From Escherichia phage Esco_phi_B-01: DNA of 64,000 nucleotides. Positions 3,608 through 45,621 of the stretch are shown one piece after another. The stretch lies in sequence record OP292222.1; one strand, 5' to 3'. Under the pieces are notes generated by a model. It was not told the origin of the DNA. It saw only the letters and a list, made by a program, of their open reading frames with translations, and made no database searches. The stretch's first letter is position 1. Each line of letters starts with the position of its first letter. A program made the position numbers and the translations under genes.

Positions 3608-4618
3608 ATGACTCGTACTGAATACATCAATGCCTTTACTAAGTATATCACTGACAATACCCCTCCATTAACCCCATATATGGTAATAGTTTCTAATATC
3701 AATAAATGGGTAGACCAAATTGATGATGCATTATCGCGCTGTTTCAAAGCTGAAATAGAAAAGATTGCAGGGCGTTTGTTTATTCCTGATATCGTAGATA
3801 CATTTAAAGGTTCTCGACTGCTTTCTCGACTGGTCAATAAGGACATCCTTTCTGAGTTCGGTAAAGAGAAATATCCGGGTTCTAACCATGTTGTTAGCTA
3901 CAAATGGTTTGGTGATACCATAAAAGATTATGTCAAAATTAAAGGTATGGACCCTAGTAGTTTATTTCCGCAACGTTGGGTTAGCGAATTCAAGGCTAAC
4001 TCTGCATTAATTCTCAAAGCGGCCTCTAAAACTATAGTTTCCGGTGATTGTCGTACTATTCACCCGATGGCTAATTGCATGATTAAAACAAATAGTTATA
4101 AAGGAAAAGCTATTATTTCTGTTATTTGGTCGCCTAATAGGAAACCTAAAGATGATGCGGAAGTTGTAAAGTATCAAGATATTGCTTACGATACCTTGAA
4201 TACTATCGAACAAGCCTTAGCTTTGATGGATACAGTAGAGAAATATGAGACCCAAGAAGTTAAACACCACTTAGGCTGGAAAGGATATGAAGTTTTAGTA
4301 ACAGTTCGCGAAATCAAATGGCCTGTTCCAAAAACTGACGCTGAAATTTACCAAGAAAAATGTGAGGAAATTGTGAATACTGATAAAGAGCCTGCTACAT
4401 TAGAAGACTTGATTAACGACTTGAACAGCCCTATCATGGCCCATACACCAATTACTAAATCCAAGTTACCGGAAATCGTTGCCTTAGAAAAAGCGTATAA
4501 AGATGCCCTTGCTATCAACAAAAAACTGACCGGACAATATACCGCTGCCAAGAAACTTTGGGAAGAGTCTACCAATCGTTTAGACCGTCTTGAACAGGCT
4601 CTGGAGCTGTTGAAATGA
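3608..4618 (+). CDS. hypothetical protein (336 aa)
   Basis: ORF; start at ATG preceded by ctGAGGAGaatatc; track start 3548 lies inside promoter. Confidence 0.6.
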   Translation: MTRTEYINAFTKYITDNTPPLTPYMVIVSNINKWVDQIDDALSRCFKAEIEKIAGRLFIPDIVDTFKGSRLLSRLVNKDILSEFGKEKYPGSNHVVSYKWFGDTIKDYVKIKGMDPSSLFPQRWVSEFKANSALILKAASKTIVSGDCRTIHPMANCMIKTNSYKGKAIISVIWSPNRKPKDDAEVVKYQDIAYDTLNTIEQALALMDTVEKYETQEVKHHLGWKGYEVLVTVREIKWPVPKTDAEIYQEKCEEIVNTDKEPATLEDLINDLNSPIMAHTPITKSKLPEIVALEKAYKDALAINKKLTGQYTAAKKLWEESTNRLDRLEQALELLK

Positions 4619-38204: not shown

Positions 38205-38501
38205 ATGTACTATGCATACGTATTAGTTCACAAGGACAAAGACGGGTATGAAATTCCATTAGAAGATGCCGGTGAAGTGACTTTGTATTCGACAAAGATT
38301 GGAGCCGACACTGCTTTAGAGGCTTATGAAATCTCAACAAAAAGATATCTTCGGCTTGGACGCCTTGAAACAGTGTGCACGCCAAGAAAATGGTGGTTTG
38401 ATAAGTGGGAAACTAAAACAGTTTTTCCTACCAAAGAACGGGCCCGAGAATTAAAATTGATTTTAGACACTTTATATGTTAAGCGAGTAAAATTGGCATG
38501 A
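38205..38501 (+). CDS. hypothetical protein (98 aa)
   Basis: ORF immediately upstream of dda. Confidence 0.5.
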   Translation: MYYAYVLVHKDKDGYEIPLEDAGEVTLYSTKIGADTALEAYEISTKRYLRLGRLETVCTPRKWWFDKWETKTVFPTKERARELKLILDTLYVKRVKLA

Positions 38502-39829
38502 TTACATTTGAAGACTTGAATATTGGGCAACGGACGGCCTTTAAAGAAATCATTGAAGCTGTTAAACGACGTAAGGGCGAATGGATTACATTGAATGGTC
38601 CTGCGGGTACAGGTAAAACGACCCTTACTAAATTTATCCTTGACCACTTAGTCAAGAATGGCGAACTCGGAGTTATTTTGACCGCACCTACGCACGCGGC
38701 CAAGAAGGTATTGTCGAAACTCGCAGGCCAAGAAGCATCGACAATCCACCGAATCTTAAAGATTAACCCGACTACATACGAAGACCAGGATATTTTTGAA
38801 CAACGTGAAGCTCCTGATTTGAGCAAATGTAATGTTCTTGTGGTCGACGAAGGCTCAATGATTGACGGTAAGTTGTTTAAGATTATCGAAGCATCGGTTC
38901 CACCATGGTGCACTGTACTGGGGATTGGCGACCGAGCTCAGTTACAGCCAGTAGAACCTGGAAGTGATGGAAGTCCTCAGTTGTCTCCATTCTTTACCCA
39001 TCCTAAAATTAAACAGCTACACCTTACTGAAGTAATGCGTAGTAATGCTCCTATCATTGAGGTTGCTACTGAAATCCGTAATGGTGGATGGTTCCGAGAT
39101 TGTATATTCGAAGGTCACGGTGTCCATGGTTTTAAATCTCAAACGGCTTTAAAAGATTTTATGATGAATTATTTTTCCATCGTAAAAGATGCTGATGCCT
39201 TGTTTGAGAATAGGATGTTTGCTTATACAAATAAATCAGTTGAAAAACTGAATAGTATTATTCGTAAAAAGCTTTATGAAACCGATGCACCTTATATCAA
39301 GGGCGAAATCCTCGTGATGCAAGAGCCTTTTATTAAGGAACTTGAATATGACGGTAAGAAATTCTCTGAAACCATTTTTAATAACGGCCAGATGGTTCGT
39401 ATTTTAGATGTGAACCACACCTCATTGTTCTTGTCTGCCAAGGATGTAGGCACTCGCCAGATGATTAATTACTGGGACCTCCAGGTTGAATCTGTTGATG
39501 AGGATGACGAGTACTACGTAGAACACTTGAAAGTTATTGATGAGGCTTCAGTTGAGAAGTTCCATTATTTCTTGGCTAAGGTGGCTACTGAGTACAAGGC
39601 CATGCGTGGGACTGGTAATAAACCTAAGTGGGCTGATTTCTGGAAAGCCAAGCGAATGTTCACTAAGGTCCGAGCTCTTCCGGTGAGCACTGTTCATAAA
39701 TCACAGGGCCTTACTGTCCAAAACAGTTTCATCTATACTCCGTGCATGCACATGGCTGATGCGAATTTAGCTTCACAGCTGGCTTATGTTAGTATTACCC
39801 GTGCTCGTACTGATGCCTATTATGTTTGA
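38498..39829 (+). CDS. dda: Dda DNA helicase (SF1B)
   Basis: Walker A GPAGTGKTT, Walker B LVVDEGSM, C-terminal SF1 motifs; similarity recalled to T4 Dda. Confidence 0.92.
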   Translation: MITFEDLNIGQRTAFKEIIEAVKRRKGEWITLNGPAGTGKTTLTKFILDHLVKNGELGVILTAPTHAAKKVLSKLAGQEASTIHRILKINPTTYEDQDIFEQREAPDLSKCNVLVVDEGSMIDGKLFKIIEASVPPWCTVLGIGDRAQLQPVEPGSDGSPQLSPFFTHPKIKQLHLTEVMRSNAPIIEVATEIRNGGWFRDCIFEGHGVHGFKSQTALKDFMMNYFSIVKDADALFENRMFAYTNKSVEKLNSIIRKKLYETDAPYIKGEILVMQEPFIKELEYDGKKFSETIFNNGQMVRILDVNHTSLFLSAKDVGTRQMINYWDLQVESVDEDDEYYVEHLKVIDEASVEKFHYFLAKVATEYKAMRGTGNKPKWADFWKAKRMFTKVRALPVSTVHKSQGLTVQNSFIYTPCMHMADANLASQLAYVSITRARTDAYYV

Positions 39830-39836
39830 GGAAAAT

Positions 39837-40076
39837 ATGATTAAAGTAACTAAAGACCAATTTTATAAGTTGAAATTCGAAACCGAATATATTATTAAGG
39901 TCAACCCAGACGATACAAATATCCGTGGCAAGGCTCATAAGGTCTTGCATTCACTTAAAGAGATTGAAAGTGATTTTATTGCAGTGCAAAAACTGATGGA
40001 CGACAACATCTCTTCGGTTTATATTGAAGACTATACTGTTGGCCAAATCCGAGACCTTATGAGGTACGTTAAATGA
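39837..40076 (+). CDS. hypothetical protein (79 aa)
   Basis: ORF with SD gaggaaaat. Confidence 0.5.
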   Translation: MIKVTKDQFYKLKFETEYIIKVNPDDTNIRGKAHKVLHSLKEIESDFIAVQKLMDDNISSVYIEDYTVGQIRDLMRYVK

Positions 40077-40747
40077 AAGATATAATTATTGACTTCGAAA
40101 CCTTTGCCACTACCCAAAATGCAGCAGTTATCGACCTCGCCGTAATTGCTTATGACCCTAATCCAGAGGTAGTAGAATCTTTTGAAGAGCTTACTCAACG
40201 TGGCCTTCGTATTAAATTCGATTTGGCTTCTCAACGCGATAAACGTCTGTTCTCTAAAAGCACATTGCAGTGGTGGAAAGAACAAGGACCTGAAGCACGT
40301 AAAAACCTGGCTCCGTCCGAAATTGATGTGAGTACTTCTATCGGCATTGGTAATTTCTTGGAATACTGCCGTAAAAACGAAGTGGACCAATGGAAATCCC
40401 AGATGTGGTGCCGCGGAATGTCCTTTGACTTTCCAATCTTAGTGGACCTTATTCGTGATGCTTATCGTTCTGAAGGTGTTCCTGAGAACGAAATCGATAC
40501 CACTAAGTTGGAACCGGTTAAATTCTGGAACCAACGCGATATCCGTACGGCCATTGAAGCCTATTCACTGACGCGTGGATTAAGCATGTGCCCTCTGCCT
40601 AACGGGACATTGAATGGCTTTGTGGCTCACGACTCTATCCATGACTGCGCCAAGGATATCTTGATGCTGAAATATGCCCAACGATATGCTTTAAACCTGG
40701 AAGATGTTCCTGAGAATCCAGACCCATTAAGTGTAAAAAATCGATAA
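40073..40747 (+). CDS. dexA: exonuclease A (DEDD 3'-5' exonuclease)
   Basis: N-terminal IIIDFETF DEDD motif; synteny next to dda. Confidence 0.85.
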   Translation: MKDIIIDFETFATTQNAAVIDLAVIAYDPNPEVVESFEELTQRGLRIKFDLASQRDKRLFSKSTLQWWKEQGPEARKNLAPSEIDVSTSIGIGNFLEYCRKNEVDQWKSQMWCRGMSFDFPILVDLIRDAYRSEGVPENEIDTTKLEPVKFWNQRDIRTAIEAYSLTRGLSMCPLPNGTLNGFVAHDSIHDCAKDILMLKYAQRYALNLEDVPENPDPLSVKNR

Positions 40748-40751
40748 AAGT

Positions 40752-40780
40752 GTTTACTTCTCCTCATGACATGATATTAT
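40752..40780 (+). promoter_or_regulatory. early promoter, PeSL-like, in inverted repeat ctcctcatg/catgaggag
   Basis: motif. Confidence 0.6.
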
Positions 40781-40807
40781 CTACCCTATCAACATGAGGA
40801 GAACAAA

Positions 40808-41317
40808 ATGAAACTTTATCGAGTTGAGTCATCGTTCAGTATCTTAGATGATGGAAACGCTATCACAATACGACGAGACCTCTGTACTCAAATGACCCCG
40901 TATAGAAGTACAACAGACTCATGGAGTGAAGGCTGGTTATTAGAAGTAGGTTTAGACAGGCCTATTTTTAGACACCATCATAGCATTAATAAAAATATCC
41001 CACTACCAAGTCAAGATAAGCTGTTGGTAGAAAATTCTAATAAAGCCATTAGAACTAAGTGGAAAAGGCCTGATTATGAAGGCTCTGATGATTATATTCC
41101 AGGTTGGTTTGTTAACCTCTACCATTTTGCTTTTGCCAGTGAGTATGATATGATGCGCTGGTTCACTCGTGAAGAGCGTGAAGAATTATCTTCTAAAGGA
41201 TTCTATCTTGCTGTTTACGAAATACCAGAAGATGAGGTTGTCATCGGTGGCCGCCAAGTAATGTTCCGCAAATCCCATGCCGAACTTGTAGATTTTATTG
41301 AATTGAGAACAATATGA
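40808..41317 (+). CDS. hypothetical protein (169 aa)
   Basis: ORF. Confidence 0.55.
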   Translation: MKLYRVESSFSILDDGNAITIRRDLCTQMTPYRSTTDSWSEGWLLEVGLDRPIFRHHHSINKNIPLPSQDKLLVENSNKAIRTKWKRPDYEGSDDYIPGWFVNLYHFAFASEYDMMRWFTREEREELSSKGFYLAVYEIPEDEVVIGGRQVMFRKSHAELVDFIELRTI

Positions 41318-41862
41318 AATTTAATTACAACCCTAAATACACCCCGAATCCGGCAGCTAAACTGATTGATTTTGATGTTTTAAGCACTTATGTATGCCCT
41401 GTTAAACCACTGGAAATTAAGGAAACCACTATGACTACTCAGACTATCGAAATCGGCAAAACCTACAAACTGGTTGAACCTGAAATTAAAACTAAGGCCT
41501 TGATTTCTGGTTATAAAACTCTGACTTATGTTTTTGGCGAAGGCGAATTTATTGTTGAAGAATTCGCCAAAAGTGAGTGGTTTGACAAATCTTACGTCCT
41601 CCACGGCCGCCGGTTAGATAATAACAAAATAGAGAAAAACCTGGTTTATGAAGATGAGTTCATCCTGTTCCAAGAAGTTGAAGAACAAGGCCCTACCGAC
41701 CTGTTGTGTGCTGCTGTGGCTATCCGTCGTCCTTTTGATAATCCTATCTGTGGTTGGGTAACAGACCAGTGGATTGAAGATGGTGTTGAACTCCTGAACG
41801 TTGTACATGCTGGTGATTTTAGCGTAGTACCTCGTAGTGCAGTGGTTAATGTATTGAATTAA
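41314..41862 (+). CDS. hypothetical protein (182 aa), paralog of 41936..42502
   Basis: shared C-terminal block (...TDQW(I/V)E(D/E)GV.L.N(V/I)...F.VVP.S..V). Confidence 0.6.
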   Translation: MKFNYNPKYTPNPAAKLIDFDVLSTYVCPVKPLEIKETTMTTQTIEIGKTYKLVEPEIKTKALISGYKTLTYVFGEGEFIVEEFAKSEWFDKSYVLHGRRLDNNKIEKNLVYEDEFILFQEVEEQGPTDLLCAAVAIRRPFDNPICGWVTDQWIEDGVELLNVVHAGDFSVVPRSAVVNVLN

Positions 41863-41864
41863 TA

Positions 41865-41893
41865 GTTTACTTTATCGAGGGCCATGTTATAAT
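41865..41893 (+). promoter_or_regulatory. early promoter (GTTTAC, 17 bp, TATAAT)
   Basis: motif. Confidence 0.6.
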
Positions 41894-41935
41894 GGCTCTC
41901 ATGGATTATAAACCTTTAACCAAGAGAGAAAAATT

Positions 41936-42502
41936 ATGATTACTATTTCCGATATCGGCAGTATCGTTCGTGTATCCAAAAAGTCTCGTTCAAAAGCTGC
42001 GGGCAGTTTAGTTGAAGTTGTTAGCATCCAACTTAAAGAAGGTGTCAGTGAAGAAAATTATGAAGTAAAAGTTCGTATCATTCCTAAAAATCGCCAGACT
42101 GAAACCCAATTCGGTTATGTGCGCGCTAAATTCTTGGAATCGACTGAATTTACCGGATACATCGCTCCCGTAGTTGAAGAAGTTGAATCCCATGATGGGT
42201 ATGTATGTGAAAGCAATGATATCCGTGGCGTAGTAGCTCAAGACGTTGAAACTATTGACCAATCTCATGTCGGCGTTGATTTCAAATGGAAATTAGGTCG
42301 AGGAGTGTGTTTTAATACTCCTAAACCGTTCAAATATGTTGACGAACCTTTTGGTACTTATGAAACTACTAGCATGTCCGGTTACATCACAGACCAGTGG
42401 GTTGAAGAAGGCGTTAAGCTTTATAACATCGTGTTCCTTGGAACCTTTAAAGTGGTTCCTGAAAGCTTTATTGTCGAGTATGCTAATATTCATCGTGCAT
42501 AA
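41936..42502 (+). CDS. hypothetical protein (188 aa), paralog of 41314..41862
   Basis: shared C-terminal block. Confidence 0.6.
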   Translation: MITISDIGSIVRVSKKSRSKAAGSLVEVVSIQLKEGVSEENYEVKVRIIPKNRQTETQFGYVRAKFLESTEFTGYIAPVVEEVESHDGYVCESNDIRGVVAQDVETIDQSHVGVDFKWKLGRGVCFNTPKPFKYVDEPFGTYETTSMSGYITDQWVEEGVKLYNIVFLGTFKVVPESFIVEYANIHRA

Positions 42503-42662
42503 AGTTTAAAAAAGTAGTGTACAACAAGATAGGGTAGTGATAAGATTACCCTATCAAAACAAATGAGTGATGGAGAATAAAAATGTTTGCACCTTATATT
42601 ATGATTGCAGTTATCGTTATCTGTCTGTATCTTTTAATTAAAGCTTGTTAAGGAGATTCAAA

Positions 42663-42881
42663 ATGGCTAAAGTTGCTGTGAACTCAACTCGCGAAGAATT
42701 TGAAGATGTTCTGTTCAACCCTGATTTAATCGTAGTTCAAAAGGAACATTCTGATACGTTTTCTCATTTATCGTCGGTTTATGTATACGAAAATCAAGGT
42801 GATAAAAACCCTATCTATGCAGTGTTCCGTGAAATTACTGCTGAAGGTACTGACTTCTGGAAGGAAACTTATAATGCGTAA
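42663..42881 (+). CDS. hypothetical protein (72 aa)
   Basis: ORF with SD aaggag. Confidence 0.5.
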   Translation: MAKVAVNSTREEFEDVLFNPDLIVVQKEHSDTFSHLSSVYVYENQGDKNPIYAVFREITAEGTDFWKETYNA

Positions 42882-43290
42882 TCAATCTAAATTTGAAGTT
42901 GGTAAGTGGTATTATTTTAAAGACGAAGCATCTGAAGCTGAATTCCGTCGTAGAGTTATCAATAACACCGGTATAGCGGATGCTATTGTTGAAGCCGAAG
43001 GTTTTTGTCCAAGGACTATCAAAGCGGGTAATGTAATTAATGTAGACCTAGCTTATGGTGATAATAAAGATATGATTTTATATCCTACTGAGCGGAAATT
43101 CTTTACTGAAATGTGTGTAGTTGAAAATGAAGATGAATGGGCAGAAGACGGTGTCTCCGAAGACGAAGACCAGTCTGAAGATGCTGCGCCGTTCGAACCG
43201 AGTGATTTCCCTTTGACTAAAATCACTATTTCTAATAATTCTGAAGCCTGGACAGTTTACCAGATGCTGAAAGCCCACTTTAAGGAATAA
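42874..43290 (+). CDS. hypothetical protein (138 aa), acidic C-terminus
   Basis: ORF. Confidence 0.5.
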   Translation: MRNQSKFEVGKWYYFKDEASEAEFRRRVINNTGIADAIVEAEGFCPRTIKAGNVINVDLAYGDNKDMILYPTERKFFTEMCVVENEDEWAEDGVSEDEDQSEDAAPFEPSDFPLTKITISNNSEAWTVYQMLKAHFKE

Positions 43291-43293
43291 TAG

Positions 43294-43470
43294 ATGCCAC
43301 TTTATGATTACAAATGCCAATCTGAAGACTGTGCAAAAGAATACGAAAAAATCAAGAAAATCTCTGAAAGAGATAACGATGTTTGTCCTGATTGCCATCG
43401 GCTGGCTGTTCGGTTAGTTTCAGCTCCTAAACATGTTAACGGCGGGTTCTATGACCTGCTAACTAAGTGA
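43294..43470 (+). CDS. FmdB-family-like zinc ribbon protein (58 aa; MPLYDYKC ... CPDC)
   Basis: N-terminal YxYxC and second CxxC pair. Confidence 0.5.
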   Translation: MPLYDYKCQSEDCAKEYEKIKKISERDNDVCPDCHRLAVRLVSAPKHVNGGFYDLLTK

Positions 43471-43476
43471 GAAATT

Positions 43477-43737
43477 ATGAAATATGTTAATCGTTCTATC
43501 GCGGCTCTTGTACTAGCAGTTTCGTTGGTTGGTTGTACTGATGCCGATAATGCTACCCGTGTATTAGATGCAAATGGCTACGAACAAATCCAAATCACGG
43601 GATACAACCTATTTGGCTGTTCTGAAGATGATTTCCAACGTACAGGCTTTATTGCTGTAGGGCCGACAGGTAAAAGGGTTGAAGGAACAGTTTGTTCCGG
43701 GTTATTCTTTAAAAAGTCGACCATTCGATTTGATTAA
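43477..43737 (+). CDS. predicted lipoprotein (lipobox LVGC)
   Basis: N-terminal MKYVNRSIAALVLAVSLVGC. Confidence 0.55.
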   Translation: MKYVNRSIAALVLAVSLVGCTDADNATRVLDANGYEQIQITGYNLFGCSEDDFQRTGFIAVGPTGKRVEGTVCSGLFFKKSTIRFD

Positions 43738-43754
43738 GGGCTTCGGCCCTTTTA
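43736..43754 (+). terminator. rho-independent terminator (gggc-ttcg-gccc + T4)
   Basis: stem-loop + T-run. Confidence 0.6.
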
Positions 43755-43803
43755 TGCTTTAAGTGAAATGGGATAATATTCTCCTACTACATGAGGAAAT
43801 AAC

Positions 43804-45621
43804 ATGATTAAGAATGAAATTAAAGTACTGTCCGACATTGAACATATCAAAAAACGTAGTGGGATGTATATTGGCTCAAGTGCTAATGAAGCTCACGGTC
43901 GATTCCTGTTTGGTAATTTTACCCAGGTGAACTATGTTCCTGGACTGGTTAAATTAATTGACGAAATCATTGATAACTCTGTCGATGAAGCTATTCGTAC
44001 CAATTTTAAATTCGCAAATAAAATCGATGTTCAAATTAAGAATAATCAGGTTTCAGTTTCTGATAATGGCCGTGGTATTCCTCAAGCAATGGTTACTGAC
44101 CAAAACGGTGAACAAATTCCGGGCCCTGTAGCTGCATGGACTATTCCAAAGGCAGGTGGTAACTTTGGAGATGACGCCGAGCGTAAGACAGGCGGCATGA
44201 ACGGTGTTGGTAGTAGTTTAACTAATATCTTCTCTGTTTTGTTCACAGGCATCACCTCTGATGGTGAGAATGAGATTACTGTTAACTGTTCCAACGGAAT
44301 GGAAAACAAAGGTTGGTCTACTAAGAAATCTAAAGGTAAGGGTACTTCGGTTATATTCACCCCAGACTTTAACCATTTCGAAGAAAATAGCCTGTCCCAA
44401 ATTTATCTGGATATTACATTAGACCGTCTTCAAACACTGGCCGTAATTTATCCAGATATCCAATTTACTTTTAATGGTAAAAAAGTGGATGGCAACTTTA
44501 AAAAGTATGCTAAGCAATTTGGTGAAGACTTTGTAATCCAAGAAACCGATAATGTTTCGATGGCATTTACTCCTTCTCCGGACGGGTTCCGTCAACTGAC
44601 GTATGTAAACAATATCCATACTAAGAACGGTGGTCACCATGTTGAATGTGTGTTCGATGATATCTGTGAGCACCTTCTGCCAGGTATTAAAAAGAAATAT
44701 AAAGGAATCGAAGTAACTAAGGCCCGTGTTAAAGAATGTCTGACCATGGTCATGTTCATTCGTGATATGAGCAATATGCGTTTTGATTCACAGACTAAAG
44801 AGCGATTAACCTCTCCATTTGGTGAGATTCGTAACCATATCCAAATTGATGCTAAGAAAATTGCAACGGCTATTCTTAAGGTCGATGGGTTGATTATGCC
44901 TATTGTCGAAGCCGCTTTAGCACGTAAACTTGCTGCTGAAAAAGCCGCCGAAACAAAAGCTGCTAAGAAAGCTTTGAAAGCCAAGGTCCATAAGCATATT
45001 AAAGCCAATATGTATGGCAAAGATGCTGATACGACTTTATTCCTTACGGAAGGTGATTCTGCAATGGGTCCTTTCATTGAAGTTCGTAATAAAGACCTCC
45101 AAGGTGGTTATCCGTTACGCGGAAAGGTTATGAATACCTGGGGTATGACTGCTGCCGATATCATGAAGAACAAAGAATTGTTTGATATCTGTGCAATCAC
45201 TGGACTGGTTATTGGTGAACCTGCAGATAAAACCAACTATCGTAATATCGCTATCATGACTGACGCCGATGTGGATGGTACTGGTTCGATTTATCCTTCG
45301 TTATTAGCTTTCTTTAGTCAGTGGCCGGAATTGTTTGAACAGGGACGAATTCGTTTCTGTAAGACTCCTGTAATCATTGCTCAGGTTGGTAAAGAACAGG
45401 AATGGTTCTATGATGTACCTAGTTATACCAAAGCTAAGGACTCACTACCAAAACATTCTATTCGTTATATTAAAGGTCTCGGTTCTCTTGAGAAGGCTGA
45501 ATACCGTCGAATGATTCAAGACCCTAAATTCGATGTAGTTCAATTACCTGAAGATTGGAAAGACCAGTTCGAAATGCTCCTTGGAAACGACCCACAGCTG
45601 CGTAAGGCTTGGATGTCATAA
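43804..45621 (+). CDS. 39: DNA topoisomerase II large subunit, gp39 with gp60 region fused (GyrB-like ATPase + TOPRIM)
   Basis: GHKL N-box EIIDNSVDEA, TOPRIM LFLTEGDSA / DADVDG; single uninterrupted 605-aa ORF. Confidence 0.92.
   Translation: MIKNEIKVLSDIEHIKKRSGMYIGSSANEAHGRFLFGNFTQVNYVPGLVKLIDEIIDNSVDEAIRTNFKFANKIDVQIKNNQVSVSDNGRGIPQAMVTDQNGEQIPGPVAAWTIPKAGGNFGDDAERKTGGMNGVGSSLTNIFSVLFTGITSDGENEITVNCSNGMENKGWSTKKSKGKGTSVIFTPDFNHFEENSLSQIYLDITLDRLQTLAVIYPDIQFTFNGKKVDGNFKKYAKQFGEDFVIQETDNVSMAFTPSPDGFRQLTYVNNIHTKNGGHHVECVFDDICEHLLPGIKKKYKGIEVTKARVKECLTMVMFIRDMSNMRFDSQTKERLTSPFGEIRNHIQIDAKKIATAILKVDGLIMPIVEAALARKLAAEKAAETKAAKKALKAKVHKHIKANMYGKDADTTLFLTEGDSAMGPFIEVRNKDLQGGYPLRGKVMNTWGMTAADIMKNKELFDICAITGLVIGEPADKTNYRNIAIMTDADVDGTGSIYPSLLAFFSQWPELFEQGRIRFCKTPVIIAQVGKEQEWFYDVPSYTKAKDSLPKHSIRYIKGLGSLEKAEYRRMIQDPKFDVVQLPEDWKDQFEMLLGNDPQLRKAWMS

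What the first reader, a model, noticed from the sequence alone, without database searches (positions are those of the whole stretch)
41314..42502. Tandem paralog pair separated by a promoter
The 182-aa and 188-aa products share a distinctive C-terminal block (GWVTDQWIEDGVELLNVVHAGDFSVVPRSAVV versus SGYITDQWVEEGVKLYNIVFLGTFKVVPESFIV) with different N-terminal halves. This indicates a local duplication followed by divergence, with an early promoter between the copies.
Basis: seen in the sequence. Interest (0 to 1): 0.4.

Follow-up and report, generated by a model that had tools for sequence, protein, structure and literature searches.

The report
Phage motB.1–motB gene pair
These two neighbouring genes are motB.1 and motB of a T4-type coliphage, which share one small C-terminal protein domain attached to unrelated front halves; this relationship has already been published, so the finding is real but ordinary.

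Summary
ORFs 41314-41862 (182 aa) and 41936-42502 (188 aa) share a C-terminal block: BLASTP 19/38 identical, E 2e-11; Smith-Waterman z = 14.8, 0 of 5000 shuffles; profile-profile E 1.9e-15 over 50 columns. The N-terminal halves show no similarity.

The window is a JS98-like Dhakavirus (T4-type phage). The genes are motB.1 and motB, in T4 synteny (dexA, motB.2, motB.1, motB, cef, goF, 39.2, 39.1, 39). Patterson-West et al. 2021 already reported the shared C-terminal domain, the different N-terminal domains and a probable duplication. Kim et al. 2025 assigned the MotB.1 N-domain to an LSm-like family.

"Duplication then divergence" is only partly right:
- The duplication is old (third-codon identity 13/38; the pair is present in three genera).
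- The N-domains were swapped rather than diverged: a basic KOW-like barrel versus an LSm-like barrel.

The promoter is real as sequence (GTTTAC-17-TATAAT). It is part of a known PeSL-type promoter/stem-loop cassette, and the stem is supported by covariation.

Additions from this work:
- The shared domain models as an acidic SH3/Tudor-like barrel, not an OB-fold.
- Single-copy phages carry KOW plus a MotB.1-type C-domain.
- The T4 reference motB.1 carries a one-base frameshift that is absent from 13 other T4-group records.

The parts
40748..40807 (+). PeSL-like promoter/stem-loop upstream of motB.2 (TTTACT-16-TATTAT with TG). A long stem spans the -10 box and the Shine-Dalgarno sequence.
   Evidence: Promoter scan; RNA fold -19.5 kcal/mol, z = -4.7; alignment with the other two intergenic elements.
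40808..41317 (+). motB.2 (169 aa). It is the upstream gene of the same cassette, and its TGA stop overlaps the motB.1 ATG (ATGA).
   Evidence: ORF list; phrog_1106 E 4.9e-51; annotated motB.2 at the syntenic position in JS98 and T4.
41314..41862 (+). motB.1 (182 aa, JS98-type). Layout: disordered tail, residues 1-42; LSm/SH3-like domain, about residues 44-121; C-terminal five-strand barrel, about residues 127-182.
   Evidence: phrog_2333 E 5.6e-86 over the full length; PF17613 34.9 bits on residues 141-177 only. 239 homologs, best 93% identical. AF2 model, pLDDT 64. JS98 annotation.
41359..41424 (+). Short conserved linear motif in the disordered N-tail of MotB.1 (residues 16-37, KLIDFDVLSTYVCPVKPLEIKE). 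In other family members it recurs between the N-domain and the C-domain.
   Evidence: Family sequences. A motif HMM built only from KOW-type proteins ranks the real MotB.1 2nd of 5001 against shuffles, at 7.3 bits: suggestive only. pLDDT is about 30.
41704..41859 (+). Shared C-terminal module in MotB.1. Residues 131-182 are the profile-level match; residues 145-182 (41746-41859) are the BLASTP block.
   Evidence: Strands 134-137, 145-155, 158-165, 168-173, 177-181, with a short helix before the last strand. Acidic: window pI 4.2, family median 4.2.
41863..41935 (+). Intergenic PeSL-type cassette: -35 GTTTAC 41865-41870; extended -10 TGtTATAAT 41885-41893; stem-loop 41877-41900 overlapping the -10 box; purine-rich Shine-Dalgarno region about 41921-41929.
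   Evidence: Promoter scan 10/12. Conserved in 8 phages. The 7-bp stem is 100% paired, with 4 of 7 pairs changed on both sides; slid controls are 29-49% paired. Fold z = -3.5. Definition of PeSLs in PMC2839356 and PMC4122927.
41936..42502 (+). motB (188 aa). Layout: basic KOW-like N-domain, residues 1-68; acidic disordered insertion, residues 71-109; C-terminal barrel, residues 112-188.
   Evidence: PF17613 5.2e-61, 205.6 bits; phrog_1671 2.7e-70. 93 homologs. AF2 pLDDT 72, C-domain 80-92. Domain pI values 9.7 / 4.05 / 6.0.
42293..42487 (+). Shared C-terminal module in MotB. Residues 120-182 are the profile match; residues 147-184 (42374-42487) are the BLASTP block. It has a longer beta1-beta2 hairpin than MotB.1.
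42503..42583 (+). PeSL-like element downstream of motB (GTGTAC ... TAAGAT, with stem-loop 42528-42555).
   Evidence: Fold -16.8 kcal/mol, z = -4.2. Alignment with JS98 and T4, where a different stem occupies the same place.

Best explanation
The two ORFs are motB.1 and motB of a JS98-like Dhakavirus (T4-type myovirus). They lie in the non-essential early region between dexA and cef.

Domain layout:
- Each protein consists of small beta-barrel domains joined by flexible linkers.
- The last ~50-60 residues are one homologous module, core G-[WYF]-[VI]-[TS]-D-Q-W-[VI]-E-[DE]-G-x-x-L-x-N-[VI]-V-x-x-G-x-[FY]-x-V-[VI]-P. It models as a five-stranded SH3/Tudor-like barrel.
- In front of it, MotB carries a basic KOW-like barrel.
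- MotB.1 instead carries a disordered tail with a short conserved motif, followed by an LSm-like barrel of the GoF/Frd.2/MotB.1 family.

History (inferred):
1. An ancestral single gene had the layout KOW - linker motif - C-domain. Marfavirus and Kanagawavirus phages still have this at the same locus.
2. It was duplicated in tandem before the Tequatro/Dhaka/Gaprivervirus split.
3. One copy (motB.1) kept a conservative C-domain but had its N-domain replaced.
4. The other copy (motB) kept the KOW domain and lengthened the first hairpin of the C-domain.

Each gene cassette is bounded by a PeSL-type early-promoter/stem-loop element. These elements give motB its own early transcription start. They are also the kind of repeat proposed to drive cassette duplication, loss and exchange in T4-type hyperplastic regions.

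Function:
- Shown for T4 MotB in the literature: it binds DNA tightly and non-specifically, alters H-NS footprints, is toxic to E. coli and raises burst size about two-fold.
- My inference: the consistently basic KOW domain, perhaps with the mildly basic MotB hairpin, supplies the nucleic-acid contact. The shared, consistently acidic C-terminal core is a common protein-interaction or assembly module. It would bring different nucleic-acid-binding heads (KOW for DNA, LSm-like possibly for RNA) to the same partner.
For: Identity and synteny:
- megablast gives 95% identity to phage Ec2-ASingh and 92% to JS98 over 2.7 kb.
- The JS98 and T4 annotations show the same gene order.
- Pfam and PHROG assignments agree.

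Homology of the module.

Domain models:
- AF2 models.
- Foldseek links the MotB.1 model to T4 MotB.1 (P39415, E 3.4e-7, 118 columns).
- There is a weak GoF-family PHROG hit on MotB.1 residues 44-126 (E 0.001), and PMC12152347 describes the LSm-like family.

Mosaic family:
- An exhaustive profile search of 1.84 billion representatives finds 33 clusters at E<=0.001. 27 of these are short proteins of 43-251 aa; 25 of them carry the module at the C-terminus, behind KOW, T4-type LSm, JS98-type or doubled N-domains, and the other two are N-terminal fragments of the module. The other six hits are long repeat proteins judged spurious.
- Single-copy phages have KOW + motif + MotB.1-type C-domain at the syntenic site.

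Age of the duplication:
- Third-position identity is 13/38.
- The pair is present in three genera.

PeSL:
-.
- Definitions and experimental promoter and terminator activity of PeSLs in RB49/phi1 are in PMC2839356; T4/PST-type consensus TTTACW-N17-TAYWAT is in PMC4122927.

Charge pattern across 90 MotB and 113 MotB.1 homologs: KOW median pI 10.0; shared core median pI 4.25 (MotB) and 4.2 (MotB.1).

Prior publication: the shared C-domain and the duplication idea are in PMC7827196. MotB biochemistry is in PMC6070864 and PMC7827196.
Against: - The functional division of labour (KOW binds DNA, C-domain binds a protein partner) is inference from charge and fold only. Patterson-West et al. 2021 considered that either domain could bind DNA and called the C-domain OB-like.
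- Model confidence is moderate (pLDDT 64 and 72). The alignments are shallow (hhalign Neff about 1.3 for MotB.1).
- The direction of the evolutionary steps (which architecture is ancestral) rests on outgroup architecture, not on a rooted tree.
- No MotB.1 phenotype is known: T4 delta-motB.1 has a normal burst (PMC12152347).
- Promoter and terminator activity of this particular element is untested.
Confidence: 0.85

Rival explanations
1. Whole-gene tandem duplication followed by ordinary sequence divergence, with the N-terminal halves diverging beyond recognition while the C-terminal block stayed constrained.
For: - The genes are adjacent, in the same orientation and of similar size.
- Both N-domains model as small SH3-like beta-barrels, so a very remote common origin cannot be excluded.
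- Patterson-West et al. 2021 also suggested that one gene arose by duplication of the other.
Against: - There is no N-terminal signal at pairwise or profile level.
- The MotB.1 N-domain groups with GoF and Frd.2, which are encoded elsewhere in the genome (PMC12152347; phrog_622 hit), rather than with KOW.
- Proteins exist that combine a clear KOW N-domain with a MotB.1-type C-domain, and a T4-type LSm domain with the linker motif and C-domain. Module exchange explains these more simply.
Confidence: 0.1
2. The shared block is a mobile C-terminal module that was added independently to two unrelated resident genes by recombination. On this view there was never a duplication of a whole ancestral motB gene.
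For: - The module is found behind at least four kinds of N-terminal region.
- A 43-aa product fuses the MotB.2 N-terminus to the last 29 residues of the module (P0235).
- PeSL-mediated shuffling is documented in T4-type hyperplastic regions (PMC2839356).
Against: - Among the 27 short family members, the module is C-terminal in 25 (the other two are N-terminal fragments of it), and every copy whose genomic context was inspected lies in the same dexA-cef interval.
- Single-copy genomes have one KOW + C-domain gene there. This fits in-place duplication followed by N-terminal replacement better than repeated capture of the module.
Confidence: 0.1
3. Chance or compositional similarity, or similarity kept up by recent gene conversion between neighbours.
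For: The block is short: 38 residues by BLASTP.
Against: - E 2e-11; 0 of 5000 shuffles; profile E 1.9e-15.
- Nucleotide identity in the block is only 56%, with 13/38 third positions identical. This rules out recent gene conversion.
Confidence: 0.01

Closest known systems
T4 MotB (Pfam PF17613, PHROG 1671), an early DNA-binding, H-NS-modulating protein
   Same: - The 188-aa product matches PF17613 at 205.6 bits.
- It aligns with T4 MotB over both the N-domain and the C-domain.
- It has the same position between motB.1 and cef, and the same upstream promoter/stem-loop.
   Different: - It carries a 25-26-residue acidic, predicted-disordered insertion (about residues 71-109) between the domains, which T4 MotB lacks.
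- As a result the whole-protein pI is 5.2, whereas T4 MotB is described as highly basic, with a value of 9.23 given in PMC6070864.
- No biochemistry exists for the Dhakavirus form.
T4 MotB.1 and the 'Category 2/4' MotB.1-like proteins of Patterson-West et al. 2021; the LSm-like family of Kim et al. 2025
   Same: - Same locus, same C-terminal module and same linker sequence, with 58% identity over residues 104-154.
- The N-domain is structurally similar to T4 MotB.1.
   Different: - The JS98-type N-region is not alignable with the T4 type by BLASTP.
- It is preceded by a 42-residue disordered tail carrying the DxDVxxxY-type motif.
- The window protein has the complete C-terminal barrel. The annotated T4 reference protein (119 aa) stops inside it because of a one-base insertion in the reference sequence.
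PeSL (promoter-early stem-loop) cassettes of T4-type phages (Arbiol et al. 2010; Comeau et al. 2014)
   Same: - It is intergenic, and runs in the order stop codon, AT-rich stretch, TTTACW-N17-TAYWAT promoter, a stem-loop overlapping the -10 box, Shine-Dalgarno sequence, ATG.
- It lies in a hyperplastic early region, next to genes whose presence varies between phages.
   Different: - Promoter and terminator activity were shown for RB49/phi1 elements, not for this one.
- This stem has no following U-run (one search found no terminator match here).
Tudor/KOW/chromo 'SH3-like small beta-barrel' domains (e.g. 53BP1 tandem Tudor 3lgf, Spt5 KOW 5ohq)
   Same: Best structural neighbours of both models, with about 50-60 aligned residues at rmsd about 1.6-2.8. 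The topology is five strands with a short helix before the last strand.
   Different: - Whether an aromatic-cage-like pocket exists was not examined.

Membership tests
MotB (Pfam PF17613 / PHROG 1671) | Whole-protein match to the family profile above the curated cut-off | tested here: met
   - 188-aa ORF: 205.6 bits against a cut-off of 25, E 5.2e-61; phrog_1671 E 2.7e-70 over residues 5-188.
- The 182-aa ORF also passes the cut-off (34.9 bits), but only on profile positions 117-153. It contains the C-terminal module, not the whole family architecture.
MotB (Pfam PF17613 / PHROG 1671) | Basic KOW-like N-terminal domain (VS..SRSKAAG motif) | tested here: met
   - The 182-aa ORF lacks this domain.
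MotB (Pfam PF17613 / PHROG 1671) | Position between motB.1 and cef in the dda-gene 39 early region | tested here: met
MotB (Pfam PF17613 / PHROG 1671) | Non-specific DNA binding, co-purification with H-NS, toxicity, about two-fold burst effect | not testable with these tools
   Shown only for T4 MotB (PMC6070864, PMC7827196).
MotB.1 (PHROG 2333; 'Category 2/4' of PMC7827196) | Full-length profile match, and location immediately upstream of motB | tested here: met
   phrog_2333 E 5.6e-86 over residues 1-182; JS98 annotates the ortholog as motB.1.
LSm-like fold family GoF/MotB.1/Frd.2 (PMC12152347) | N-terminal bent five-stranded antiparallel beta-sheet related to GoF and Frd.2 | tested here: inconclusive
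   - Against: BLASTP against the window's GoF-like protein finds nothing in the N-domain.
PeSL promoter-early stem-loop cassette | Sigma-70-like early promoter consensus (T4/PST type, TTTACW-N17-TAYWAT) in an intergenic spacer | tested here: met
   TTTACT / TATAAT with TG upstream, 10/12; conserved in 8 phages.
PeSL promoter-early stem-loop cassette | Stable stem-loop within or overlapping the promoter | tested here: met
   Stem 41877-41900 overlaps the -10 box. It is 100% paired, with 4 of 7 pairs changed on both sides. Fold z values are -3.5 to -5.0.
PeSL promoter-early stem-loop cassette | Promoter and terminator/attenuator activity; recombination between elements | not testable with these tools
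   - There is only indirect support. The neighbouring gene content varies between phages: motB.2 versus VR7 ORF013c, an extra ORF010c in RB51, and a 22-aa ORF inserted after the downstream element relative to JS98.
- No U-tract terminator match was found.
OB-fold, cold-shock-like DNA-binding domain (proposed for the MotB C-domain in PMC7827196) | Structural similarity to OB-fold proteins | tested here: not met
   - The short helix lies between strands 4 and 5, as in SH3-like barrels.
- Caveat: the models have moderate confidence and were searched whole.

The most novel reading that the evidence does not exclude
The acidic SH3/Tudor-like C-terminal barrel is a portable targeting module, possibly working together with the DxDVxxxY linear motif that accompanies MotB.1-type copies. 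It would dock different nucleic-acid-binding heads (KOW in MotB, LSm-like in MotB.1) onto one host partner, such as H-NS/StpA nucleoprotein complexes. MotB.1 would then be a second, so far unrecognised, nucleoid- or RNA-directed takeover factor. Its activity may have been missed because published plasmid-expression work apparently used the 119-aa product of the frameshifted T4 reference ORF, which lacks most of this domain.
Probability: 0.15. Interest if true: 0.5.

Novelty: already known. Interest (0 to 1): 0.22.

Why it matters
The pair itself is a published example of domain reuse among T4 early "host-takeover" genes, so confirming it adds little.

Three by-products could help specialists:

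1. The T4 reference motB.1 ORF appears truncated by a single extra G. Experiments or models based on the 119-aa product therefore omit about 28 residues of the most conserved part of the protein.
2. The shared domain looks like an acidic SH3/Tudor-type barrel rather than a DNA-binding OB-fold. That shifts the likely DNA-binding role of MotB to its basic KOW domain.
3. The locus shows clearly how PeSL-bounded cassettes and domain swaps generate small paralog families in phage hyperplastic regions.

Tried and rejected
- **Sequence search of the PDB** with both proteins and with the profiles A3 and A5. No relative was found. The only hits were weak matches of the 'YITDQW' strand to designed 'Pizza' propeller repeats, plus one kinase hit at E 0.027. 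An earlier recollection that a MotB C-domain crystal structure exists could not be substantiated and was dropped.
- **NCBIfam and PADLOC**: no hits.
- **Rfam** on 40600-43900: only a sub-threshold DapZ match, 22.9 bits against a gathering score of 56.
- **Long proteins (532-862 aa)** in the exhaustive search match only profile positions 22-47, repeatedly. I judged them spurious beta-propeller/NHL-type repeat matches.
- **Does the acidic linker of the window's MotB contain the DxDVxxxY motif?** The motif HMM did not hit it. MAFFT places 'DGYVCESNDIRGVV' opposite 'GGYVVDEDVAHMYL' of phage CIP9, but that is not statistical evidence.
- **Non-circular test of the motif** in MotB.1 gave only 7.3 bits, rank 2 of 5001. 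It is kept as suggestive.
- **'DEWAEDGV' in the GoF-like protein** against 'DQWIEDGV' in MotB.1: E 0.023 over 8 residues, not pursued.
- **Internal ATG at codon 40 as an alternative start for MotB.1**: not favoured. Codons 1-39 are conserved (6 synonymous against 3 non-synonymous codon differences versus UFV13). The ATG overlaps the motB.2 stop. In 245-250-aa variants a longer N-terminus reads straight through the same motif.
- **Programmed frameshifting as an explanation for the T4 reference**: not favoured. There is no slippery site, and 13 other T4-group records simply lack the base.
Full report
**1. What is in the sequence**

The window holds two same-strand ORFs exactly as described: 41314-41862 (182 aa) and 41936-42502 (188 aa). 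Both quoted peptides appear near their C-termini.

The similarity was tested three ways:
- BLASTP aligns residues 145-182 with 147-184: 19/38 identical, 27/38 positive, E 2e-11.
- In a permutation test the Smith-Waterman score is 112, against 32.1 +/- 5.4 (maximum 64) for 5000 shuffles. That gives z = 14.8, and no shuffle reached the real score. The N-terminal portions score 28 against a shuffle mean of 27.9, which is no similarity at all.
- Comparing profiles built from 113 and 90 homologs extends the match to MotB.1 131-180 versus MotB 120-182. This covers 50 columns at E 1.9e-15, with a 13-residue insertion in the 188-aa protein, and there is no second hit.

The similarity is confined to a C-terminal module of about 50-60 residues and is far beyond chance.

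**2. Identity of the genes**

The region is 92-95% identical to JS98-like coliphages of the genus Dhakavirus. The gene order matches the annotations of JS98 and T4:
- dda (38498-39829)
- a dexA.1-like ORF
- dexA (40073-40747)
- motB.2 (40808-41317)
- motB.1 (41314-41862)
- motB (41936-42502)
- cef
- a goF-like gene
- 39.2, 39.1 and gene 39

Family assignments:
- The 188-aa protein matches Pfam PF17613 'motB' at 205.6 bits and phrog_1671 at 2.7e-70.
- The 182-aa protein matches phrog_2333 over its whole length (5.6e-86). It matches PF17613 only over profile positions 117-153.

**3. This is already in the literature**

Patterson-West et al. 2021 (PMC7827196) aligned 102 MotB homologs. They reported:
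[quoted passage not shown] - that 40 other genomes carry both genes.

Kim et al. 2025 (PMC12152347) placed the MotB.1 N-domain with GoF and Frd.2 in an LSm-like fold family. They also found no phenotype for T4 delta-motB.1.

T4 MotB binds DNA non-specifically, co-purifies with H-NS, changes H-NS footprints, is toxic, and doubles burst size (PMC6070864, PMC7827196).

**4. Anatomy from models**

AlphaFold2 on family alignments gave the following.

| Protein | Mean pLDDT | Region | Prediction |
|---|---|---|---|
| MotB.1 | 64 | 1-42 | disordered |
| | | 44-121 | strand-helix-three strands-helix-strand |
| | | 127-182 | five strands, short helix before the last |
| MotB | 72 | 1-68 | small barrel |
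| | | 71-109 | disordered |
| | | 112-188 | five strands in the same order, longer first hairpin, pLDDT 80-92 |

- The OB-fold assignment proposed for the MotB C-domain in 2021 is therefore not supported here. The caveats are moderate model confidence and whole-model searches.
- Foldseek against viral models links the MotB.1 model to T4 MotB.1 (P39415, E 3.4e-7).
- No relative has a solved structure.

**5. Charge pattern**

Across the homologs:
- The KOW-like domain is always basic: median pI 10.0, net charge +5.
- The MotB-specific hairpin is mildly basic: median pI 8.9.
- The shared core is always acidic: median pI 4.25 in MotB and 4.2 in MotB.1.

In the window protein, the inter-domain insertion (residues 71-109) is strongly acidic (pI 4.05). 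It brings the whole-protein pI to 5.2, whereas T4 MotB is described as highly basic, with a value of 9.23 given.

I infer that DNA contact resides in the KOW domain and that the shared core is a protein-interaction or assembly surface. This is inference, not a result.

**6. Family-wide architecture**

A profile of the module was run against 1.84 billion representative proteins. It found only 33 clusters at E<=0.001, of which 21 had E<=1e-10. Six long repeat proteins were judged spurious. The other 27 are short proteins of 43-251 aa: 25 carry the module at the C-terminus, and two are N-terminal fragments of it. The architectures are:
- KOW + MotB-type C-domain.
- KOW + MotB.1-type C-domain (P0218, P0220, P0224, P0225, P0229, P0230, P0233, P0234).
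- T4-type LSm domain + C-domain (P0226, P0227).
- JS98-type (P0217).
- Long forms of 246-251 aa with an added N-terminal region: a second LSm-like domain in the Gaprivervirus type (P0221) and an extra N-terminal domain in P0223.
- A 43-aa fusion of the MotB.2 start to the last 29 residues of the module (P0235).

Copy number by tblastn over 898 phage records:
- usually two copies per genome in Escherichia and Shigella T4-likes;
- three in RB51-like phages, where the extra ORF010c lies directly after motB;
- one in T2 and in Klebsiella and Enterobacter phages.

The single genes of Marfavirus Potts1 and Kanagawavirus CIP9 lie at the same locus. They are KOW + linker motif + MotB.1-type C-domain.

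Two further points bear on the history:
- Third-codon positions in the window's two blocks are saturated, at 13/38 identical.
- The pair is present in three genera.

Taken together, this points to an old in-place duplication of a KOW + C-domain gene, followed by replacement of the N-domain in the motB.1 lineage. It does not point to a recent local duplication followed by gradual divergence.

**7. The promoter between the copies**

- The spacer 41863-41935 contains GTTTAC (41865-41870), a 17-nt gap, and TATAAT (41888-41893) preceded by TG. This is the best match in the scanned 4.2 kb.
- The element is conserved in JS98, T4, RB51, VR7, P479, T6 and UFV13.
- The -10 box sits in a hairpin (41877-41900). 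Its 7-bp core is paired in 100% of cells across the eight phages.
- Four of the seven pairs show changes on both sides. Slid controls are only 29-49% paired. Fold z-scores are -2.6 to -5.0.
- This is the architecture of the PeSL (promoter-early stem-loop) cassettes of T4-type phages. For those, 'overlapping the -10 box' is one of the two commonest arrangements. Promoter and terminator activities, and recombination into mini-circles, were demonstrated in RB49/phi1 (PMC2839356; T4/PST consensus TTTACW-N17-TAYWAT in PMC4122927).
- Similar elements precede motB.2 (40748-40807) and follow motB (42503-42583).
- So motB.2 + motB.1 form one PeSL-bounded cassette, with an ATGA stop/start overlap at 41314-41317, and motB forms another.
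- Activity of these particular elements is untested, and no U-tract terminator was detected.

**8. By-product: the T4 reference motB.1**

- The annotated T4 MotB.1 (119 aa) ends GWVTDQWIGRWR*.
- The next frame encodes EDGVELLNVVHAGEYSVVPRSAVVAILN*, which is the rest of the conserved block.
- Over 532 nt, the only difference between NC_000866.4 and the T4 assembly OZ209023 is one extra G in the reference. The OZ209023 sequence translates to a 143-aa protein with the full block.
- In a megablast of the 91-nt region, only AF158101.6 and NC_000866.4 are 100% identical to the reference. Thirteen other T4, T4T, RB55 and RB59 records each match at 98.9% over a 90-nt span, consistent with the same single-base gap. 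The gap itself was verified base by base only in OZ209023.
- The reference therefore most likely carries a sequencing error or a private mutation.
- The two papers in the library that mention motB.1 do not discuss this.
- Kim et al. describe a 13.8-kDa MotB.1, gene synthesis, and NC_000866.4 coordinates. Their plasmid-borne protein was therefore probably the truncated form. This last step is my inference.

**9. Verdict**

The finding is real and statistically solid, but it re-discovers a published relationship in a well-studied phage family. The interpretation needs correcting in three ways:
- The duplication is ancient, not local or recent.
- The N-domains were swapped, not diverged.
- The promoter is a PeSL-type cassette.

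Interest is low. The modest new points are the fold reassignment, the outgroup architecture, and the T4 reference frameshift.

Noticed in passing
L002 (T4 NC_000866.4) 3792-3800 region, equal to record position about 7300; compare window 41773-41780: The T4 reference motB.1 has one extra G (TGGATTGGAAGATGG against TGGATTGAAGATGG). It truncates the protein to 119 aa inside the conserved C-terminal block. Thirteen other T4, T4T, RB55 and RB59 records match the region at 98.9% over a 90-nt span, consistent with lacking the G. This was verified base by base in OZ209023, which encodes 143 aa. Published MotB.1 work appears to have used the 119-aa form.
   Followed up: yes
window 42584-42652 (+): A 22-codon ORF encodes a very hydrophobic peptide (MFAPYIMIAVIVICLYLLIKAC), with its own Shine-Dalgarno-like GGAGAA. 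It sits between the PeSL-like element after motB and cef. The stretch is absent from JS98, where cef follows the element directly. T4 has a different short insert there.
   Followed up: partly
window 41359-41424 (MotB.1 residues 16-37); also L009:2234-2668, L010:2228-2722 and L004:1162-1671: A short motif ([IV]D.D[VI]..[MT]Y....[KLP]P[LI]) lies in predicted-disordered sequence. It accompanies MotB.1-type C-domains at different positions: N-terminal in the JS98 type, and between the N-domain and C-domain in KOW-type and RB51-type proteins. A non-circular HMM test gave rank 2 of 5001, so it is only suggestive.
   Followed up: partly
window 42146-42262 (MotB residues 71-109): Dhakavirus MotB carries an acidic (pI 4.05), predicted-disordered insertion that T4 MotB lacks. 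It makes the whole protein acidic (pI 5.2). MAFFT places part of it opposite the linker motif of single-copy phages, but without statistical support.
   Followed up: partly
window 40748-40807 (+): In the promoter/stem-loop element before motB.2, a 12-bp stem (CUUCUCCUCAUG / CAUGAGGAGAAC) pairs the motB.2 Shine-Dalgarno sequence (fold -19.5 kcal/mol, z = -4.7). Read-through transcripts from upstream might therefore be translationally masked.
   Followed up: no
window about 43130-43160 (GoF-like protein, within ORF 42781-43290): The GoF-like protein contains 'DEWAEDGV', resembling the module core 'DQWIEDGV' of MotB.1 (6/8, E 0.023 for the single comparison). It could be a relic of the module or chance.
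   Followed up: no
L004 (RB51) 2227-2646; L007 (T6) 1129-1668; L005 (VR7) 611-1671: The locus varies between phages. RB51 has a third paralog (ORF010c, KOW + MotB-type C-domain) directly after motB. T6 has a 55-aa ORF and a 101-aa ORF in place of motB.1. In Gaprivervirus, motB.2 is replaced by a 101-aa ORF, and MotB.1 has a doubled N-domain (251 aa).
   Followed up: partly
window 43736-43751 (+): A GC-rich hairpin with a UUCG loop (AAGGGCTTCGGCCCTT) followed by Ts lies after gene 39.1. It looks like an intrinsic terminator or stabiliser before gene 39.
   Followed up: no
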